The notes beneath the pieces were generated by a model. It ran no database searches and was not told the DNA's origin. It saw only the letters and a list, made by a program, of their open reading frames with translations. Below are positions 9,317-63,920 of a DNA stretch of 64,000 bases, one piece after another. Within the stretch, counting starts at the first letter, position 1. Each line of letters starts with the position of its first letter. Origin of the DNA: Candidatus Kuenenbacteria bacterium (GTDB taxonomy: Bacteria > Patescibacteriota > Patescibacteriia > UBA11705 > JABHMO01); NCBI GenBank assembly GCA_013202715.1, contig JABMRF010000018.1, positions 14,641-78,640 of the forward strand, given 5' to 3'. A program made the position numbers and the translations under genes.

Positions 9317-9820
9317 ATGGATTTAAACAAAGCAATGCTAATCGGTCGCTTGACTCGCGATCCGGAGGGAAGAACAACACCACAAGGAACTACTGTCGCT
9401 TCATTTTCAGTAGCTACCAACTTTGTGTGGGTTGACGCAAACGGACAAAAACAAGAAAAAGTTGAATATCACAATATCGTTGCCTGGAGAAAATTGGCTG
9501 ACATTTGTACCCAGTACTTGAAAAAAGGAAGCAAGGTCTACATCGAGGGGCGACTACAAACTCGAGATTGGGAAGGCCAAGATGGTGTAAAGCGTTACAG
9601 AACGGAAGTCGTAGCAGACAACATGATCATGCTCGACAGCAAGCCACGAAGTGATTCTTCTGGTTCTGGATACAACCAGGCTCCACCTCCACAGGCAGAA
9701 GCACAACCTGTAATCCAGGTTGATCAATCACCTGTAGAAGGTACTGAGATTCCTGAGGCAAATGCTCCTACTACTAGTGGTAGTGACGATGAAATTAAAG
9801 TTGAAAACATTCCTTTTTAA
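9317..9820 (+). CDS. ssb: single-stranded DNA-binding protein
   Basis: N-terminus MLIGRLTRDPE..R.T..G...A.FS.A.N, an OB fold, a Gly/Pro-rich linker and an acidic C-terminal tail DDEIKVENIPF. Confidence 0.9.
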   Translation: MDLNKAMLIGRLTRDPEGRTTPQGTTVASFSVATNFVWVDANGQKQEKVEYHNIVAWRKLADICTQYLKKGSKVYIEGRLQTRDWEGQDGVKRYRTEVVADNMIMLDSKPRSDSSGSGYNQAPPPQAEAQPVIQVDQSPVEGTEIPEANAPTTSGSDDEIKVENIPF

Positions 9821-60087: not shown

Positions 60088-60164
60088 GGGCCCGTAGCTC
60101 AGTTGGTTAGAGCGCTTGCATGGCATGCAAGAGGTCGCTGGTTCGACCCCAGTCGGGTCCACCA
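60088..60164 (+). tRNA. tRNA-Ala (anticodon GGC)
   Basis: Cloverleaf with the G3:U70 identity pair. Anticodon loop ATGGCAT. CCA is encoded. Confidence 0.8.
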
Positions 60165-60280
60165 TGTACCATTCGTGTACTTCGTTCACTCAGGTACATG
60201 GCAAGCCATATTATTTCAAAACAAGATAATTTAAATTAACTATCAATTATCTTCAGTTAACTTTTATTAACTTTCTTTTT

Positions 60281-60356
60281 GCAGTCGTAGCTTAATGGAT
60301 AAAGCATCTGGCTTCGGACCAGAGGATTGGGGGTTCGAGTCCCTCCGGCTGCACCA
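60281..60356 (+). tRNA. tRNA-Arg (anticodon UCG)
   Basis: Cloverleaf: acceptor GCAGTCG/CGGCTGC, anticodon loop CTTCGGA, T-loop TTCGAGT. CCA is encoded. Confidence 0.75.
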
Positions 60357-60456
60357 TGAAGTACATGCTTATCTGCCTTTGGCAGATGGCGCATGACTTC
60401 ATGGTAAACCATAACAAATTGGTTTACCGTGAAGTCATGAGCATGTACTTCACGGA
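60357..60456 (+). repeat. large branched hairpin element (left flank of GIY-YIG cassette 2)
   Basis: Outer stem tgaagtacatgc/gcatgtacttca is 12 bp. Inner stems are gcatgacttcatggtaaacc/ggtttaccgtgaagtcatgagc and atctgcc/ggcagat. Confidence 0.65.
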
Positions 60457-60494
60457 TCCGTAGATCAAGTGGAGAAACCATAATCAACGTTACC

Positions 60495-60764
60495 ATAAAA
60501 TATATATTCTTTGTTTATATTCTGGAAAGTCAAAAGGATTACAAATTATACACGGGTTTTACTCCCGATGATCCAGATAAACGAACAAAAAAACACAACA
60601 AAGGATTAGTTCCCTCTACGAAAAAAAGGATACCATTCAATCTAGTTTATTTTGAAGCATCTATGAATCAGGATGATGCTCTAAGGAGAGAAAAATATTT
60701 TAAAACTACTGCCGGAAAACGCGCAATAAAGCACATGCTAAGAAAAACACTCAAAAAGAAGTAA
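60495..60764 (+). pseudogene. GIY-YIG nuclease family ORF with no canonical start codon (ATA where ATG is expected)
   Basis: Frame translates to IKYIFFVYILESQKDYKLYTGFTPDDPDKRTKKHNKG...LVYFEASMNQDDALRREKYFKTTAGKRAIKHMLRKTLKKK*. GIY-YIG and C-terminal motifs are intact. The first in-frame ATG lies far inside. The ORF track missed it. Confidence 0.6.
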
Positions 60765-60767
60765 CAC

Positions 60768-60860
60768 GGGTTTACCCTGAAGTTAATCCGCTTTAACACG
60801 GGTTTACCCTGAAGTCATAGGAAAAATTTGAAAGAGTTCAAATTTTTCCTATGTACTTCA
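60768..60860 (+). repeat. right-flank repeat of GIY-YIG cassette 2
   Basis: Direct repeat acacgggtttaccctgaagt x2 followed by a perfect 13-bp hairpin ggaaaaatttgaa/ttcaaatttttcc. The ..gggtttaccctgaagtcat...atgtacttca segment matches the left-flank element. Confidence 0.6.
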
Positions 60861-60936
60861 GGGCGCATAGCTCAGCTGGTAGAGCAGTTGGCTCTTAACC
60901 AATTGGTCGGAGGTTCGAGTCCTCCTGTGCCCACCA
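60861..60936 (+). tRNA. tRNA-Lys (anticodon CUU)
   Basis: Cloverleaf: acceptor GGGCGCA/TGTGCCC, anticodon loop CTCTTAA, T-loop TTCGAGT. CCA is encoded. Confidence 0.8.
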
Positions 60937-61084: not shown

Positions 61085-61180
61085 AACGGTACGGATTACA
61101 GATTGCTACAGATGTACAGATTCATAACTATAACCTTAAATCCGTACATCCGTATTTGATCCGTAATCTGTAAATCTATG
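61085..61180. repeat. family C palindromic word repeat (tacagat/atctgta, atccgta/tacggat)
   Basis: Left arm ggtacggattacagattgctacagatgtacagatt, right arm aaatccgtacatccgtatttgatccgtaatctgtaaatct. Confidence 0.6.
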
Positions 61181-61807
61181 AAACATTACATTGCTATCGC
61201 GGGAAATATCGGCGCAGGAAAAACTGTCATTTCAAAAAAGTTGGCTAAACATTTTGATTGGCAACTATATCAGGAACCATTTCAGGAAAATCCATACTTG
61301 CGTGATTATTATAATGATATGACAAAATGGGCATTTAAATGCGAAATGTTCTTTCTCGGAAGACGCCTGCAAGATCACCTAGAAATACTTGAAAGTGCTA
61401 ATGTCACGATTCAAGACCGCTGTATTTACGAAGGTGCAGAAATTTTTGTTAAAAATCTGTATTTGAACGGCCATTTAGCTGAAACTGACTGGCAAAATTA
61501 CAATAACCTATATCAATCTATTAAAAAAACAATTACTCCACCGGATTTAATCGTCTATGTAAAATCTTCAACTGATCGTTGTCTGAAAAATATAAATAAA
61601 AGAAACCGCAACGTGGAATTTCATATGAGCTCAGACTATATCGCCAACTTGAACAAGCTTTACGAAGAATGGATCAAAAGCTTTGATCTTTGTCCGATTT
61701 TAATTGCAGATGCTGACAATAATGAATTCAAGTATGTCGAAAACGATTTTGTAAATTTAGCAAACCAGATTCAAGATAGTTTGGAAAAACAAATTACCAA
61801 ACAATAG
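61178..61807 (+). CDS. deoxynucleoside kinase (dCK/dGK family)
   Basis: P-loop IAIAGNIGAGKT. Contains the ..F.E.....R..YL.. and DR pattern of the dNK family. Confidence 0.7.
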   Translation: MKHYIAIAGNIGAGKTVISKKLAKHFDWQLYQEPFQENPYLRDYYNDMTKWAFKCEMFFLGRRLQDHLEILESANVTIQDRCIYEGAEIFVKNLYLNGHLAETDWQNYNNLYQSIKKTITPPDLIVYVKSSTDRCLKNINKRNRNVEFHMSSDYIANLNKLYEEWIKSFDLCPILIADADNNEFKYVENDFVNLANQIQDSLEKQITKQ

Positions 61808-61871
61808 TTTACTGCAAACTTACAACAAATAATAGGTTTTTCACTATTTATTTTTATATTTTTATTGTAAT

Positions 61872-61905
61872 TTTAGCCAAGCCCTTGACAAATTAAAAAA
61901 TGTTT
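61872..61905 (+). promoter_or_regulatory. promoter TTGACA-17-TATAAT followed by a leader hairpin
   Basis: Sequence cccttgacaaattaaaaaatgtttgatataat. A leader hairpin atgagtgtctttttctgagacgctcat plus T-run lies at 61953-61990. Confidence 0.45.
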
Positions 61906-62070
61906 GATATAATACTAATGTGGAAGTATAGAGAGGGCCTTTCCGCCTTCTATATGAGTGTCTTTTTCTGAGACGCTCATTTGTTTTAAATAAGTTATTT
62001 ACATAAAGCGGTAAGTTTAGCAAAATTTACTTGTCGCTTTAACAAGTTACTTAATTAACCCCAAAATCCT

Positions 62071-62232
62071 ATGGCACCAGCCAAAACACAATTTCAAAGG
62101 CAAAAATGTGAGGTCTACTCGAGGGTGGTCGGATATTTAAGTCCAGTGCAACGCTGGAACAACGGAAAAAAGTCCGAGTTCAGTGATCGCCGTACTTTCA
62201 ATGTCTGGTCAAAGACTTCTGCTAAGATTTAA
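62071..62232 (+). CDS. orphan 53-aa ORF resembling the glycyl-radical C-terminus of anaerobic ribonucleotide reductase NrdD
   Basis: MAPAKTQFQRQKCEVYSRVVGYLSPVQRWNNGKKSEFSDRRTF.. The SRVVGYL...WN.GK..EF.DR block corresponds to the NrdD glycyl-radical motif. No NrdD body or nrdG lies adjacent. Confidence 0.45.
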   Translation: MAPAKTQFQRQKCEVYSRVVGYLSPVQRWNNGKKSEFSDRRTFNVWSKTSAKI

Positions 62233-62312
62233 AGTTAAACATTATCGAATTAGTTCCTCACTCCTGTGGGTCCATCCTTTCGACTTTTAACTTTTACCTT
62301 TTCACTGTTTTT

Positions 62313-63920
62313 ATGACACACCACAAACACCTGTCTTACTTTTGGAACACTGAGAAAGCTAAGGCCAAAATTAAAGAAAATAAAATCTACCGAAAAGCCA
62401 AAGACGAAACGTCCGCTTTTCATGTTTTTGGGCACGTTTTATTTTCCTTAATTATAGTCGCAACTGCTGCAGTAAGTTTGAATATTGTAGAAAAAGGTGT
62501 AAATGAACCAAAACAAACCTTTAACAAGGTTATGGGGGTACAAATTGTACTTGCTGCAGAAAATATAAATCAAGCGGAATTAACAGCGCAATCACACGCA
62601 CAGCTCAATATTAAACCAAATGAAGCATTTACATTCAATTTAAGTTTTGAGAATACTGGAATGTCTACCTGGACAAAAGAAACCGTATATCTAAAGTCCA
62701 TATCAACTTCTCTAAAATTCAAACATGAGTACTGGCCTGATCCATATCATCCGGCTCAACTGATTGAAGAGAGCGTTGCACCAGGTGAAACTGGGACATT
62801 TAAATTTGCCCTAAAAGCACCAAAGAAATTTTCCAATCACAAGGGAGATTTTTTATTGGTTAATGACAATGTCATGATCAAAGGAGGAAAAGTGGAAATT
62901 GAAATGAACGTTGTTGAAGATCCGGCAAATTACAAATCCGCCACTAAAATTGTTACCGAAACGACAAACCCAAAACTAAATGTGTGTAATTTAAAATTAA
63001 ATATTGCTAGTGTCAACAGTAGCCTTGATAATGAAACGTGCGTTGAAAAATTTGCCCTGAATGAAGATGGCCCAGATGTTAGAGTCGGACTATTTTATAC
63101 AGACAAAATGATATCTATCAAAAATACAGCAGCCTGGCAAATTTACGACGATAACAATAAACTTTTGGCCTCAATTCCAGCTGAAACCATAATTACCTTA
63201 AACTATATTGATGCAAAAAAAGAATTTGCTTTTGATCTTATTAGTAAGGCAAAGACCGTACGCAGTTTAACCAACCTTACTTTAAAAAACTTCAATCAGG
63301 GTATTTGGGAAATTACAACACTCGAAGACAGACCAAGTTGGAACAAAACAATTAATTATAATAAATTCACGGGAAACCTAGCTCTTAAATTTAATGACTA
63401 CAAAGAAAGAGTGTGGCTTATTGAAACCCTACCGTTGGAAAAATATTTAAAAGGCCTAAAAGAAAGTTCAAACCCGGACCCAATAGAATATCACAAAGCA
63501 CAAGTAACAGCGGCCAGAACCTACGCTCTGTACCATGTCAATAAATTCAAAATTGAGGACAGCCTCTTCGACCTTTACACAGACGAAAAAGATCAGGTTT
63601 ACAAAGGTTACGCAGCAGAACAAATCATGAAAAATCAAGTCAAAGCGGTTGAAGACACACGCGGTGTTATTGCAACTTTTGATAATAGCGTGATTGTGGC
63701 CTATTATTCCGCCAGAAGCGGAGGCCAAACTATTACCCATAAAAGTATCCCCTATTTAAAATCAGTCAAGACGCCATATACAGCGGGAAAAGGCCTTTAT
63801 GGTCATGCGATTGGGATGGATCAGGTTGATGCAAAAAACCGAGCAGAAAAAGATAGCTGGACCTATGACCAAATATTAAAATATTATTACACGGGAATCA
63901 AATTAGAAAAGATTTATTAG
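62313..63920 (+). CDS. SpoIID/LytB-domain protein with N-terminal TM anchor
   Basis: The C-terminal ..VTAARTYALYH......DLY.D..DQVYKGY......V..AV..T.G.V..........YSA.SGGQT.. is the SpoIID/LytB signature. Confidence 0.65.
   Translation: MTHHKHLSYFWNTEKAKAKIKENKIYRKAKDETSAFHVFGHVLFSLIIVATAAVSLNIVEKGVNEPKQTFNKVMGVQIVLAAENINQAELTAQSHAQLNIKPNEAFTFNLSFENTGMSTWTKETVYLKSISTSLKFKHEYWPDPYHPAQLIEESVAPGETGTFKFALKAPKKFSNHKGDFLLVNDNVMIKGGKVEIEMNVVEDPANYKSATKIVTETTNPKLNVCNLKLNIASVNSSLDNETCVEKFALNEDGPDVRVGLFYTDKMISIKNTAAWQIYDDNNKLLASIPAETIITLNYIDAKKEFAFDLISKAKTVRSLTNLTLKNFNQGIWEITTLEDRPSWNKTINYNKFTGNLALKFNDYKERVWLIETLPLEKYLKGLKESSNPDPIEYHKAQVTAARTYALYHVNKFKIEDSLFDLYTDEKDQVYKGYAAEQIMKNQVKAVEDTRGVIATFDNSVIVAYYSARSGGQTITHKSIPYLKSVKTPYTAGKGLYGHAIGMDQVDAKNRAEKDSWTYDQILKYYYTGIKLEKIY

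What the first reader, a model, noticed from the sequence alone, without database searches (positions are those of the whole stretch)
61865..62232. Orphan NrdD-type glycyl-radical mini-ORF behind a promoter plus structured leader
A 53-aa ORF reproduces the C-terminal glycyl-radical block of class III ribonucleotide reductase (EVYSRVVGYLSPVQRWNNGKKSEFSDRRTF), but no catalytic body or nrdG lies nearby. A consensus promoter TTGACA-17-TATAAT sits 160 nt upstream. The leader carries a terminator-like hairpin (atgagtgtc/gacgctcat plus T-run), which suggests attenuation or riboswitch control. It is either a gene remnant or a stand-alone 'spare-part' glycyl-radical peptide analogous to GrcA/YfiD for pyruvate formate-lyase. 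A spare part for NrdD would be new.
Basis: partly seen in the sequence, partly recalled or inferred. Interest (0 to 1): 0.6.

Follow-up and report, generated by a model that had tools for sequence, protein, structure and literature searches.

The report
Detached glycyl-radical tail of split NrdD
This 53-residue gene is a conserved second copy of the radical-carrying tail of the anaerobic ribonucleotide reductase, which in this bacterial group is made as a large body plus a separate tail peptide; such a detachable, possibly replaceable, radical part appears not to have been described for this enzyme.

Summary
ORF 62071-62232 (+) matches the last 32 positions of Pfam NRDD (E 2.5e-10, above the curated cut-off). 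A perfect extended promoter and a terminator-like hairpin lie upstream. No nrdD or nrdG is in the 64-kb window.

It is not a remnant. Against diverged relatives, synonymous sites are saturated and non-synonymous change is 5-15%.

In relatives, tails of about 45-53 aa sit inside nrd operons, as nrdD-tail-nrdG or nrdD-nrdG-tail. The NrdD bodies there stop right after the zinc ribbon and lack the RVVGY motif: 119 of the 120 full-length close NrdD homologues. So this is a two-piece class III reductase.

The window's organism (a Candidatus Kuenenbacteria MAG) very probably carries such an operon on another contig, with its own 48-aa tail. The window ORF is therefore an unlinked second copy. A Falkowbacteria contig carries both copies 178 kb apart.

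The orphan lineage sits upstream of a SpoIID-like gene. It keeps a conserved promoter plus hairpin leader in nine lineages, with no Rfam match and no significant covariation.

Best reading: a separately regulated extra supply of the radical tail. This is a spare-part idea, but unlike GrcA the body has no tail of its own. The idea is untested.

The parts
61885..61913 (+). Sigma-70-type promoter: -35 TTGACA (61885-61890), 17-nt spacer, extended -10 TGaTATAAT (61905-61913)
   Evidence: 12 of 12 hexamer matches plus TG. The same aTTGACA-N17-(TTTGC)TATAAT is conserved upstream of the orphan tail in L099, L100, L101, L102, L103, L106, L109 and L114/117.
61920..61990 (+). Conserved leader: 5' GUGGA..., a lineage-specific extra hairpin (about 61932-61951), the terminator-like hairpin 61954-61980, and a U-run
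   Evidence: Covariance model R1 hits 61920-61990 at 40.7 bits, E 4e-6. It also hits eight other orphan loci, including L100, which was not used to build the model. nhmmer E is 1.6e-13. The hairpin has 11 pairs plus TTGTTTT. In the hairpin, 88% of cells pair, but the shuffled controls match this, so covariation is not significant.
61986..62058 (+). Long spacer hairpin between the terminator-like hairpin and the start codon; its sequence is not conserved in relatives
   Evidence: The RNA fold of 61920-62075 gives -43.8 kcal/mol, z = -4.45. Spacers of relatives differ in sequence but often hold their own inverted repeats.
62071..62232 (+). Orphan NrdD glycyl-radical tail gene (53 aa). The radical glycine is inferred as Gly21, codon GGA 62131-62133, in the RVVGY motif.
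   Evidence: Pfam NRDD C-terminus at E 2.5e-10. It is identical to NQT49561.1 (HQ571_02605), Ca. Kuenenbacteria. Eighteen columns are invariant across 23 tails. pS is 0.74-1.09 and pN 0.05-0.15 against relatives. It aligns to the Gly-loop segments of solved NrdD structures 8P23, 4COI and 4U3E; those matches are weak on their own (E 0.7-0.9).
62313..63920 (+). SpoIID-like gene (535 aa), the conserved downstream neighbour and probably co-transcribed
   Evidence: Pfam SpoIID at E 9.7e-15. The tail-then-SpoIID order is kept in L008, L099, L100, L101, L103, L106, L109/110 and L114/117, at 43-59% protein identity. No + strand terminator is predicted in the 80-nt gap.
61178..61807 (+). Deoxynucleoside kinase gene (209 aa), the upstream neighbour. 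It is a separate transcription unit and is listed as context.
   Evidence: Pfam dNK at E 1.6e-52. It is also upstream of the orphan tail in L099 (69% identity) and, further away, in L103 (58%).

Best explanation
The ORF encodes a real, translated peptide of about 50 residues. It is the detached glycyl-radical tail of a two-piece class III (anaerobic) ribonucleotide reductase.

In this clade the NrdD catalytic body (ATP-cone plus barrel plus zinc ribbon) ends just after the second CPxC knuckle. The segment that carries the radical glycine (xCEVYSRVVGYLSPVxRWNxGKKxEFxDRKTF) is made as a separate polypeptide.

Inferred steps:
- The activase NrdG abstracts the C-alpha hydrogen of Gly21 of the tail.
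- The tail docks its Gly loop into the NrdD barrel where the fused C-terminus sits in one-piece enzymes.
- The radical is passed to the active-site cysteine.

The window's organism very probably encodes one tail inside its nrdD-tail-nrdG operon on another contig. The window ORF is an unlinked paralogue with its own consensus promoter and a conserved promoter-proximal hairpin plus U-run. It is probably co-transcribed with a SpoIID-like gene.

The most likely role of this second copy is an independently regulated extra or replacement supply of the oxygen-labile radical tail. A damaged radical site could then be renewed by swapping a 50-residue peptide rather than remaking the 700-residue body.

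Shown: homology, the split architecture, co-occurrence of two copies, purifying selection, and conservation of the leader. Inferred: activation in trans, docking, exchange, and attenuation.
For: (1) The best 120 of 132 homologues of the ORF are all 41-80 aa proteins carrying PF13597. All 120 carry the [YF][ST]R..G[YFW] motif.

(2) Context. Tails lie between nrdD and nrdG (L004, L009, L090) or after nrdG (Halanaerobium L001). Among the 80 species-representative genome loci closest to the query, 38 are nrdD-tail-nrdG, 14 are nrdD-nrdG-tail, 20 are fused and 6 are orphans.

(3) The adjacent NrdD bodies end at ...CPxC(DEEMGY...) without RVxGY. Of the 120 full-length sequences among the closest homologues of the L009 NrdD body, 119 have the zinc ribbon but no tail motif.

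(4) Fused relatives read ...CPxC-(2-6 aa)-CEVYSRVVGYL. Some carry long linkers, so the break falls in a linker. One split pair overlaps by 4 nt (gap -4, L055).

(5) Same organism. The nrdD body P0141 is NQT49388.1 and the window ORF is NQT49561.1; both are labelled Ca. Kuenenbacteria. The two contigs occur in the same samples. The tetranucleotide correlation is r = 0.978, the highest of ten loci compared. The operon there has its own intact 48-aa tail and an nrdG.

(6) Firm case. On Falkowbacteria contig MFGJ01000007.1 the operon tail is at 265,739-265,954 and an orphan tail at 87,588-87,749.

(7) Selection. Synonymous sites are saturated (pS 0.74-1.09) while pN is 0.05-0.15.

(8) The tail-then-SpoIID synteny and the leader are kept in nine lineages.
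Against: - There is no expression, proteomic or biochemical evidence.
- Nothing shows that NrdG can activate a free tail, or that tails exchange on the body.
- For the Kuenenbacteria MAG, the same-genome assignment is indirect. It rests on accession numbers 173 apart, shared samples and composition.
- A tree of the 37-residue core does not resolve orphans from operon copies. The age of the duplication and any functional divergence are therefore unknown.
- Both copies keep the same core motifs, so nothing in the sequence marks the orphan as 'spare' rather than simply redundant.
- The terminator-like hairpin could stop most transcripts before the ORF.
- No Shine-Dalgarno sequence precedes the ATG. 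The neighbouring genes lack one too.
- The leader hairpin shows no significant covariation.
Confidence: 0.62

Rival explanations
1. Decayed remnant of a once full-length nrdD, with no function.
For: Only the last 33 or so residues of NrdD are present, and no body or activase lies within the 64-kb window.
Against: tblastn with an NrdD body finds nothing upstream. The upstream 260 nt hold a conserved promoter and leader. The ORF is conserved with saturated synonymous and low non-synonymous change. It keeps its start codon and its synteny with the SpoIID-like gene in nine or more lineages. The same peptide is a regular operon gene elsewhere.
Confidence: 0.02
2. A GrcA/YfiD-type spare part in the strict sense: a small protein that repairs a full-length NrdD whose own glycyl-radical domain has been cleaved by oxygen.
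For: It is a stand-alone homologue of the GRE C-terminus and is separately transcribed. Loci that fit this scheme do exist elsewhere: Pacearchaeota L086 has a full NrdD with its own tail, an extra 94-aa Zn-ribbon plus Gly-tail ORF, and nrdG.
Against: In this organism and its relatives the NrdD body has no glycyl-radical segment to lose. The operon already supplies a tail in trans.
Confidence: 0.08
3. A redundant paralogue with no distinct role, or a competitor or decoy that titrates NrdG or the NrdD body and so down-regulates the reductase. Alternatively, a tail for a different, unidentified body.
For: Orphan and operon tails share all core motifs (29 of 33 core residues). The tree does not separate them. 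Nothing links the orphan to oxidative stress.
Against: The orphan has been kept for long periods with its own conserved promoter and leader and fixed synteny. This argues for a selected, separately regulated function. A decoy would be expected to lose the radical glycine or the docking residues, and none is lost.
Confidence: 0.18
4. The conserved promoter plus hairpin plus U-run (61885-61990) is a separate small-RNA gene of about 50-70 nt, and the ORF is expressed from another start.
For: A consensus promoter is followed within about 35-60 nt by a good intrinsic-terminator-like hairpin in all nine lineages. The spacer to the ATG is not conserved. Weak promoter-like sites lie at 61998-62026 and 62039-62067.
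Against: The element was found only in front of the tail-SpoIID pair, among about 1.8 Mb of related loci and 0.57 Mb scanned with the covariance model. It always lies on the same strand and upstream of the pair, as expected for a cis-acting leader. The downstream promoter-like sites are weak (9 of 12), and their conservation in relatives was not checked.
Confidence: 0.25

Closest known systems
Canonical one-piece class III ribonucleotide reductase NrdD with activase NrdG (T4, E. coli, T. maritima, P. copri)
   Same: The C-terminal motif is the same: RVxGY, then WNxGK, E and R. The ORF aligns to that segment of the solved structures 8P23, 4COI and 4U3E, though those matches are weak on their own (E 0.7-0.9). 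The body has the same ATP-cone plus NRDD domains, a zinc ribbon before the Gly loop, and an adjacent radical-SAM activase.
   Different: Here the Gly loop is a separate gene product of about 48-53 aa and the body stops after the zinc ribbon. This genome also very probably has a second, unlinked tail gene (the window ORF).
GrcA/YfiD (and T4 Y06I), the autonomous glycyl-radical 'spare part' of pyruvate formate-lyase
   Same: It is a small stand-alone protein homologous to the C-terminal radical segment of a glycyl radical enzyme. It is presumably activated by the cognate activase and works in trans. The window copy is separately transcribed.
   Different: GrcA belongs to the PFL family (Gly_radical domain), is 127 aa, and backs up a PFL that has its own radical domain. 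The window peptide is NrdD-type, 53 aa, has no zinc ribbon, and its NrdD body lacks any radical segment. A 2026 review states that formate lyases are the only GRE class with identified spare-part proteins (PMC13450708).
Split class II ribonucleotide reductase NrdJa/NrdJb, and genes-in-pieces RNRs
   Same: An RNR catalytic chain is encoded as two polypeptides, with the C-terminal functional module on the second one (PMC9669993).
   Different: That is a different class, with a B12-dependent mechanism. NrdJb carries an IscU-like domain and a zinc-finger/cysteine-pair domain for re-reduction, not the radical cofactor. No second, unlinked copy is described.
Promoter-proximal intrinsic-terminator attenuators of nucleotide-metabolism genes, such as B. 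subtilis pyrG reiterative-transcription control (from my own knowledge, not tested here)
   Same: A very short 5' segment is followed directly by a terminator hairpin with a pyrimidine-rich 5' arm and loop, ahead of a nucleotide-metabolism gene.
   Different: No G-run at the start site, no demonstrated alternative pairing and no sequence similarity. This is a lead only.

Membership tests
Class III RNR glycyl-radical segment (Pfam PF13597 NRDD, C-terminal part) | Significant profile match to the NrdD C-terminus | tested here: met
   E 2.5e-10, 40.1 bits against a cut-off of 26.2, profile positions 531-562 of 562. It also hits seven NCBIfam NrdD models, at their C-terminal ends only and far below their whole-protein cut-offs.
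Class III RNR glycyl-radical segment (Pfam PF13597 NRDD, C-terminal part) | Radical glycine in the RVxGY motif, followed by WNxGK...E..R | tested here: met
   SRVVGYLSPVQRWNNGKKSEFSDRRTF. These residues are invariant in 23 tails and aligned to the Gly loop region of 8P23 and 4COI.
Class III RNR catalytic subunit NrdD (whole enzyme) | Ten-stranded barrel body and zinc ribbon in the same polypeptide as the Gly loop | tested here: not met
   The ORF is 53 aa with a single Cys. The body and zinc ribbon are on a separate protein (P0141, 698 aa) very probably encoded on another contig of the same genome.
Class III RNR system | Radical-SAM activase NrdG encoded in the genome | tested here: met
   L090 12445-13131 has Radical_SAM plus Fer4_12 domains next to nrdD and the operon tail. 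The same-genome assignment is indirect.
GrcA/YfiD-type spare-part protein | Small autonomous homologue of the radical segment of its enzyme | tested here: met
GrcA/YfiD-type spare-part protein | The cognate enzyme retains its own radical domain, so the small protein acts only as a replacement | tested here: not met
   P0141 ends ...CPDCDEEMGYVDEAMRVEKSLGVKGKFIPPTAVS with no RVxGY. 119 of 120 full-length close bodies are likewise truncated.
GrcA/YfiD-type spare-part protein | Membership of the PFL-type Gly_radical family | tested here: not met
   The Pfam scan at E <= 1 returns only NRDD.
GrcA/YfiD-type spare-part protein | Restores activity after oxygen cleavage of the radical site | not testable with these tools
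   This needs anaerobic biochemistry.
Split (two-polypeptide) RNR | Body and C-terminal module in adjacent, separately initiated ORFs across many lineages, with fused homologues showing that the pieces are contiguous | tested here: met
   Gaps range from -4 to about 870 nt, each tail has its own ATG, and there are two gene orders. Fused relatives read CPxC-(2-6 aa)-CEVYSR.
Riboswitch or structured cis-regulatory RNA | Match to a described RNA family | tested here: not met
   Rfam gathering and E-value scans show nothing credible.
Riboswitch or structured cis-regulatory RNA | Conserved structure supported by covariation | tested here: inconclusive
   The element is conserved in nine lineages, including one held out of the model. 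In the hairpin, 88% of cells pair, but the shuffled controls match this and only one pair changes on both sides.

The most novel reading that the evidence does not exclude
In a wide set of anaerobes (CPR bacteria, Halanaerobiales, Synergistota, Elusimicrobia, DPANN archaea) the glycyl radical of class III ribonucleotide reductase sits on a free-standing peptide of about 50 residues. This 'cartridge' would be activated by NrdG and exchanged on the NrdD body. The orphan copy in this window, behind a dedicated consensus promoter and a conserved attenuator-like leader and tied to a cell-wall or division gene, would be an on-demand replacement supply. That would be the first spare-part logic for a glycyl radical enzyme outside pyruvate formate-lyase.
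Probability: 0.4. Interest if true: 0.85.

Novelty: new variant of a known kind. Interest (0 to 1): 0.7.

Why it matters
Class III RNR is the anaerobic route to DNA precursors, and its glycyl radical is irreversibly destroyed by oxygen. Three consequences follow if the radical sits on a small detachable subunit.

1. Repair after oxygen exposure would cost a 50-residue peptide rather than a 700-residue enzyme. That could help explain how small-genome anaerobes tolerate transient oxygen.
2. NrdG must recognise a free peptide or a non-covalent complex. This would give a minimal, tractable substrate for studying radical installation.
3. Surveys that score NrdD as intact or truncated from the large ORF alone will misjudge these genomes.

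The extra, separately regulated tail gene would extend the spare-part concept, so far documented only for pyruvate formate-lyase (PMC13450708), to ribonucleotide reduction. The related families seen in passing suggest the phenomenon is broad: the autonomous Zn-ribbon plus Gly-tail proteins of about 114 aa, and a locus with a full NrdD plus an extra radical-domain ORF.

Tried and rejected
- Rfam at gathering thresholds on the whole window, and at E <= 10 on 61780-62330, gave only tRNAs and sub-threshold noise.
- An exact-sequence contig look-up of the ORF product returned 'not on record'. The neighbouring SpoIID-like protein worked instead.
- Pseudogene test: tblastn of an NrdD body and two NrdG proteins against the window gave no hits.
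- NrdR boxes (consensus acaCwAtATaTwGtgt, from memory) were looked for by eye in the orphan promoter and leader. No convincing or conserved match was seen. No formal scan was run.
- A neighbour-joining tree of the 37-residue tail core was too noisy to show whether the SpoIID-linked orphans are monophyletic.
- The covariance model of the leader confirmed conservation and specificity, but covariation was not above the controls. The MAFFT alignment of the hairpin was out of register for three sequences and was realigned to the model.
- An exact or near-exact second copy of the leader motif was sought in the window. None was found.
- Literature searches for a split NrdD, an NrdD spare part, or NrdD in Patescibacteria found no description. 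The library lacks most subscription-journal papers, so absence is not proof.
- Structure prediction was not run. A body-plus-tail complex cannot be submitted, and the peptide alone would not be informative.

Full report
**1. What is in the window**

ORF 62071-62232 (+) encodes MAPAKTQFQRQKCEVYSRVVGYLSPVQRWNNGKKSEFSDRRTFNVWSKTSAKI. It matches the extreme C-terminus of Pfam NRDD: E 2.5e-10, 40.1 bits against a cut-off of 26.2, profile positions 531-562 of 562. It also matches the C-terminal ends of seven NCBIfam NrdD models. It aligns with the glycine-loop segments of the solved NrdD structures 8P23, 4COI and 4U3E, although those matches are weak on their own at E 0.7-0.9.

Upstream lies a perfect extended promoter: TTGACA 61885-61890, 17 nt, TGaTATAAT 61905-61913. 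An 11-pair hairpin with a T-run follows at 61954-61980. The flanking genes are a deoxynucleoside kinase (61178-61807) and a SpoIID-like protein (62313-63920). None of the ten largest ORFs of the window is an NrdD or NrdG. tblastn with an NrdD body and two NrdG proteins finds nothing in the 64 kb.

**2. It is a gene family, not a remnant**

A search of 5.8 billion proteins returned 132 hits. The best 120 are all 41-80 aa (median 48), all carry PF13597 and all carry the radical-glycine motif. They come from Patescibacteria, Halanaerobiales, Bacillota and others. Eighteen positions are invariant across 23 representatives: C13, E14, Y16-P25, W29, N30, G32, K33, E36 and R40.

Nei-Gojobori counts were made on the 33-codon core against relatives. 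Synonymous sites are saturated (pS 0.74-1.09), while non-synonymous differences are 0.05-0.15. The ORF is under strong protein-level constraint.

**3. What the family is: the detached tail of a split NrdD**

In relatives the mini-gene lies inside the nrd operon.
- In CPR genomes the order is nrdD (about 690 aa), tail (about 48 aa), nrdG (L004, L009, L090).
- In Halanaerobium hydrogeniformans the order is nrdD (with an intein), nrdG, tail (L001).

The adjacent NrdD proteins stop immediately after the zinc ribbon. Examples are ...FCPYCDEEMGYIDKV...*...YCPKCEAESESEQEA* and ...YCPDCDEEMGYVDEAMRV...*. None contains RVxGY.

Among the 120 best homologues of the L009 NrdD body plus four further cluster members, 120 are full-length (at least 600 aa). 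Of these, 119 have the zinc ribbon but no tail motif, and one is fused.

Among the 80 species-representative genome loci closest to the query:
- 38 are nrdD-tail-nrdG;
- 14 are nrdD-nrdG-tail;
- 20 are fused one-piece NrdDs;
- 6 are orphans.

The fused relatives read ...CPxC-(2-6 residues)-CEVYSRVVGYLRPVxQWNxGK.... A few have long linkers (L035, L142, L169), so the break lies in a linker between the zinc ribbon and the glycine strand. Each tail has its own ATG. Gaps range from -4 nt (L055) to several hundred nt. Stop codons of all three kinds end the bodies, which argues against recoding or an assembly artefact.

The taxonomic spread of the split form covers CPR, Halanaerobiales, Synergistota, Elusimicrobia, and Woese-, Micr-, Iain- and Nanoarchaeota.

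**4. The window ORF is a second, unlinked copy**

The ORF is identical to NQT49561.1 (HQ571_02605, Candidatus Kuenenbacteria). A truncated NrdD body labelled Ca. Kuenenbacteria, P0141 = NQT49388.1, lies 173 accession numbers away. Its contig (111 kb, L090) comes from the same samples as the window's contig. It also has the highest tetranucleotide correlation with the window of ten loci compared (r = 0.978).

That contig carries nrdD (698 aa), a 48-aa tail (MSLQKIERTKCEVYSRVVGYLSPVHRWNIGKKSEFADRKTFNKLIGKN) and nrdG. So the organism very probably has a complete split enzyme with its own tail, plus the window's orphan tail.

The same situation is certain in a Falkowbacteria MAG. On the single contig MFGJ01000007.1, nrdR-nrdD-tail-nrdG has its tail at 265,739-265,954. 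An orphan tail after mraZ-rsmH is at 87,588-87,749, which is 178 kb away.

A metagenome scan added many more orphans: 38 loci in all had no nrdD or nrdG in the available flanks.

**5. A conserved orphan lineage and its leader**

The tail-then-SpoIID-like order of the window recurs in L008, L099, L100, L101, L103, L106, L109/110 and L114/117. The SpoIID-like proteins there are only 43-59% identical. dNK is also upstream in L099 and L103.

In nine of these lineages the upstream region keeps this layout: aTTGACA, 17 nt, (TTTGC)TATAAT, 5-6 nt, GTGGAgatgtAAAA, GAGTGTCTTT, loop, AAGGCGCTC, TTTTATTT.
- An nhmmer profile finds it only there in 1.8 Mb of related loci. That includes L100, which was not in the profile (E 7e-12).
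- A covariance model gives the same result.
- It is absent upstream of the nrdD operons and of the Falkowbacteria orphan.
- In the window an extra hairpin (about 61932-61951) is inserted between GTGGAAG and the conserved hairpin.

The hairpin pairs in 88% of cells and contains G-U pairs that would be C-A mismatches on the other strand. This fits an RNA element on the + strand. However, changes are mostly one-sided and the shuffled controls do as well, so covariation does not prove the structure.

Only about 15 nt separate the likely start site from the hairpin in most lineages, and Rfam has no match. A classical riboswitch aptamer is therefore unlikely. The most economical reading is a promoter-proximal intrinsic terminator acting as an attenuator of a tail-SpoIID transcription unit. 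No + strand terminator is predicted between the two genes. A separate small RNA of about 50-70 nt is a live alternative. The long spacer hairpin 61986-62058 is not conserved in sequence.

**6. Mechanism (inferred)**

By analogy with one-piece NrdD, NrdG would generate the radical on Gly21 of the tail. The tail would insert its glycine loop into the barrel of the body, next to the finger-loop cysteine. In glycyl radical enzymes the radical domain must swing out of the barrel to reach the activase (established knowledge for PFL and NrdD). A non-covalent tail is therefore structurally reasonable, and the fused long-linker homologues support this.

A second tail gene with its own strong promoter and gate would supply additional or replacement tails. 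The oxygen-cleaved part could then be swapped cheaply.

**7. Comparison with what is known**

The closest systems are listed here.
- Canonical NrdD/NrdG: same chemistry in one piece.
- GrcA/YfiD of pyruvate formate-lyase: an autonomous radical module, but PFL-type, and a back-up for an enzyme that has its own domain.
- Split class II NrdJa/NrdJb: a two-chain RNR, but the second chain is not the radical carrier (PMC9669993).

[quoted passage not shown] Searches for a split NrdD or an NrdD spare part found no description. Databases merely name some of these peptides 'anaerobic ribonucleoside-triphosphate reductase' by homology. The library searched lacks most subscription-journal papers, so prior description cannot be excluded.

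**8. Verdict**

The feature is real, conserved and more interesting than a remnant. The split-enzyme reading is well supported by sequence and context (about 0.85). The assignment of the window ORF as a functional second tail is strong (about 0.8). Its specific role as a regulated spare or extra supply is a reasoned inference (about 0.4-0.5). I rate novelty as a new variant of a known kind, and interest at 0.7.

Noticed in passing
L031 9770-10132, L047 9605-10138, L059 4281-4619; proteins P0245-P0364: There is a large family of autonomous proteins of about 111-117 aa that combine a CxxC...CxxC zinc ribbon with the NrdD glycine tail (...NFQKCEVYSRVVGYLRPV...). A search gave 923 hits at E <= 1e-5. 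The best 120 are all 97-154 aa and all carry both motifs. They are mostly from Desulfobacterota, and in the three genome loci no nrdD or nrdG lies within 10 kb. These are more GrcA-like than the 50-aa tails.
   Followed up: partly
L086 2484-4682, 4737-5033, 5136-5798 (Pacearchaeota MAG): A full-length NrdD that keeps its own glycine tail is followed by an extra 94-aa Zn-ribbon plus glycine-tail ORF and then nrdG. This arrangement fits a true spare part for class III RNR.
   Followed up: partly
L080 9623-10132 (Patescibacteria MAG): A stand-alone ORF of about 153 aa equals the last part of the NrdD barrel plus the zinc ribbon plus the glycine tail. No NrdD body or nrdG lies within 10 kb.
   Followed up: no
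L090 ~9733-9741, L004, L009 and L093, 200-250 nt upstream of nrdD or nrdR: A perfect DnaA-box consensus (TTATCCACA or its complement) and a nearby conserved GCGACACT motif lie upstream of the nrd operon in four CPR genomes. The nrdD leaders there also show a promoter followed by a short hairpin and T-run.
   Followed up: no
C-termini of split NrdD bodies, e.g. L004 ~9620-9650, P0141 residues ~665-672: Many truncated bodies carry a conserved C-D-E-E-h-G-Y extension right after the zinc ribbon. It is also seen in long-linker fused forms such as L169. It may be a docking element for the tail. Halanaerobiales bodies lack it.
   Followed up: no
window 62107-62109 (Cys13 of the tail): The Cys in xCEVYSR is invariant in tails and in the fused relatives listed. 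It is absent from the aligned position in T. maritima NrdD (4COI), which reads AKVDEYMRIVGYL. It is a fifth cysteine beyond the four zinc-ribbon ligands, and its role is unknown.
   Followed up: no
window 61090-61180 and 62270-62300; L090 9910-9960: Intergenic regions carry short degenerate repeats (tacagattacggatt..., cttttaacttttaccttttcac). The 14-mer TACAGATTACGGAT occurs once in the window and once in L090 but not in four other loci checked. Similar repeats fill the intergenic spacers of relatives.
   Followed up: partly
L001 6000-9230 (Halanaerobium hydrogeniformans): The truncated NrdD body carries an intein (Pfam Intein_splicing) inserted in the NRDD domain. Several other bodies of about 1015 aa look similar.
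   Followed up: no
L100 1107-1462: In this lineage a small ORF of about 70 aa (MEKLKLELTEKPKNVKEAVETFLRDH...) sits between the conserved leader and the orphan tail gene.
   Followed up: no
window 60088-60933: Three tRNA genes lie at 60088-60161, 60281-60353 and 60861-60933 on the + strand, just upstream of the dNK gene. About 500 nt of unassigned sequence lies between the second and third.
   Followed up: no
P0002 (66 aa, metagenome): This tail homologue has an internal tandem duplication of the EVYSRVVGYLSPVSHWNEGKKEEW segment.
   Followed up: no
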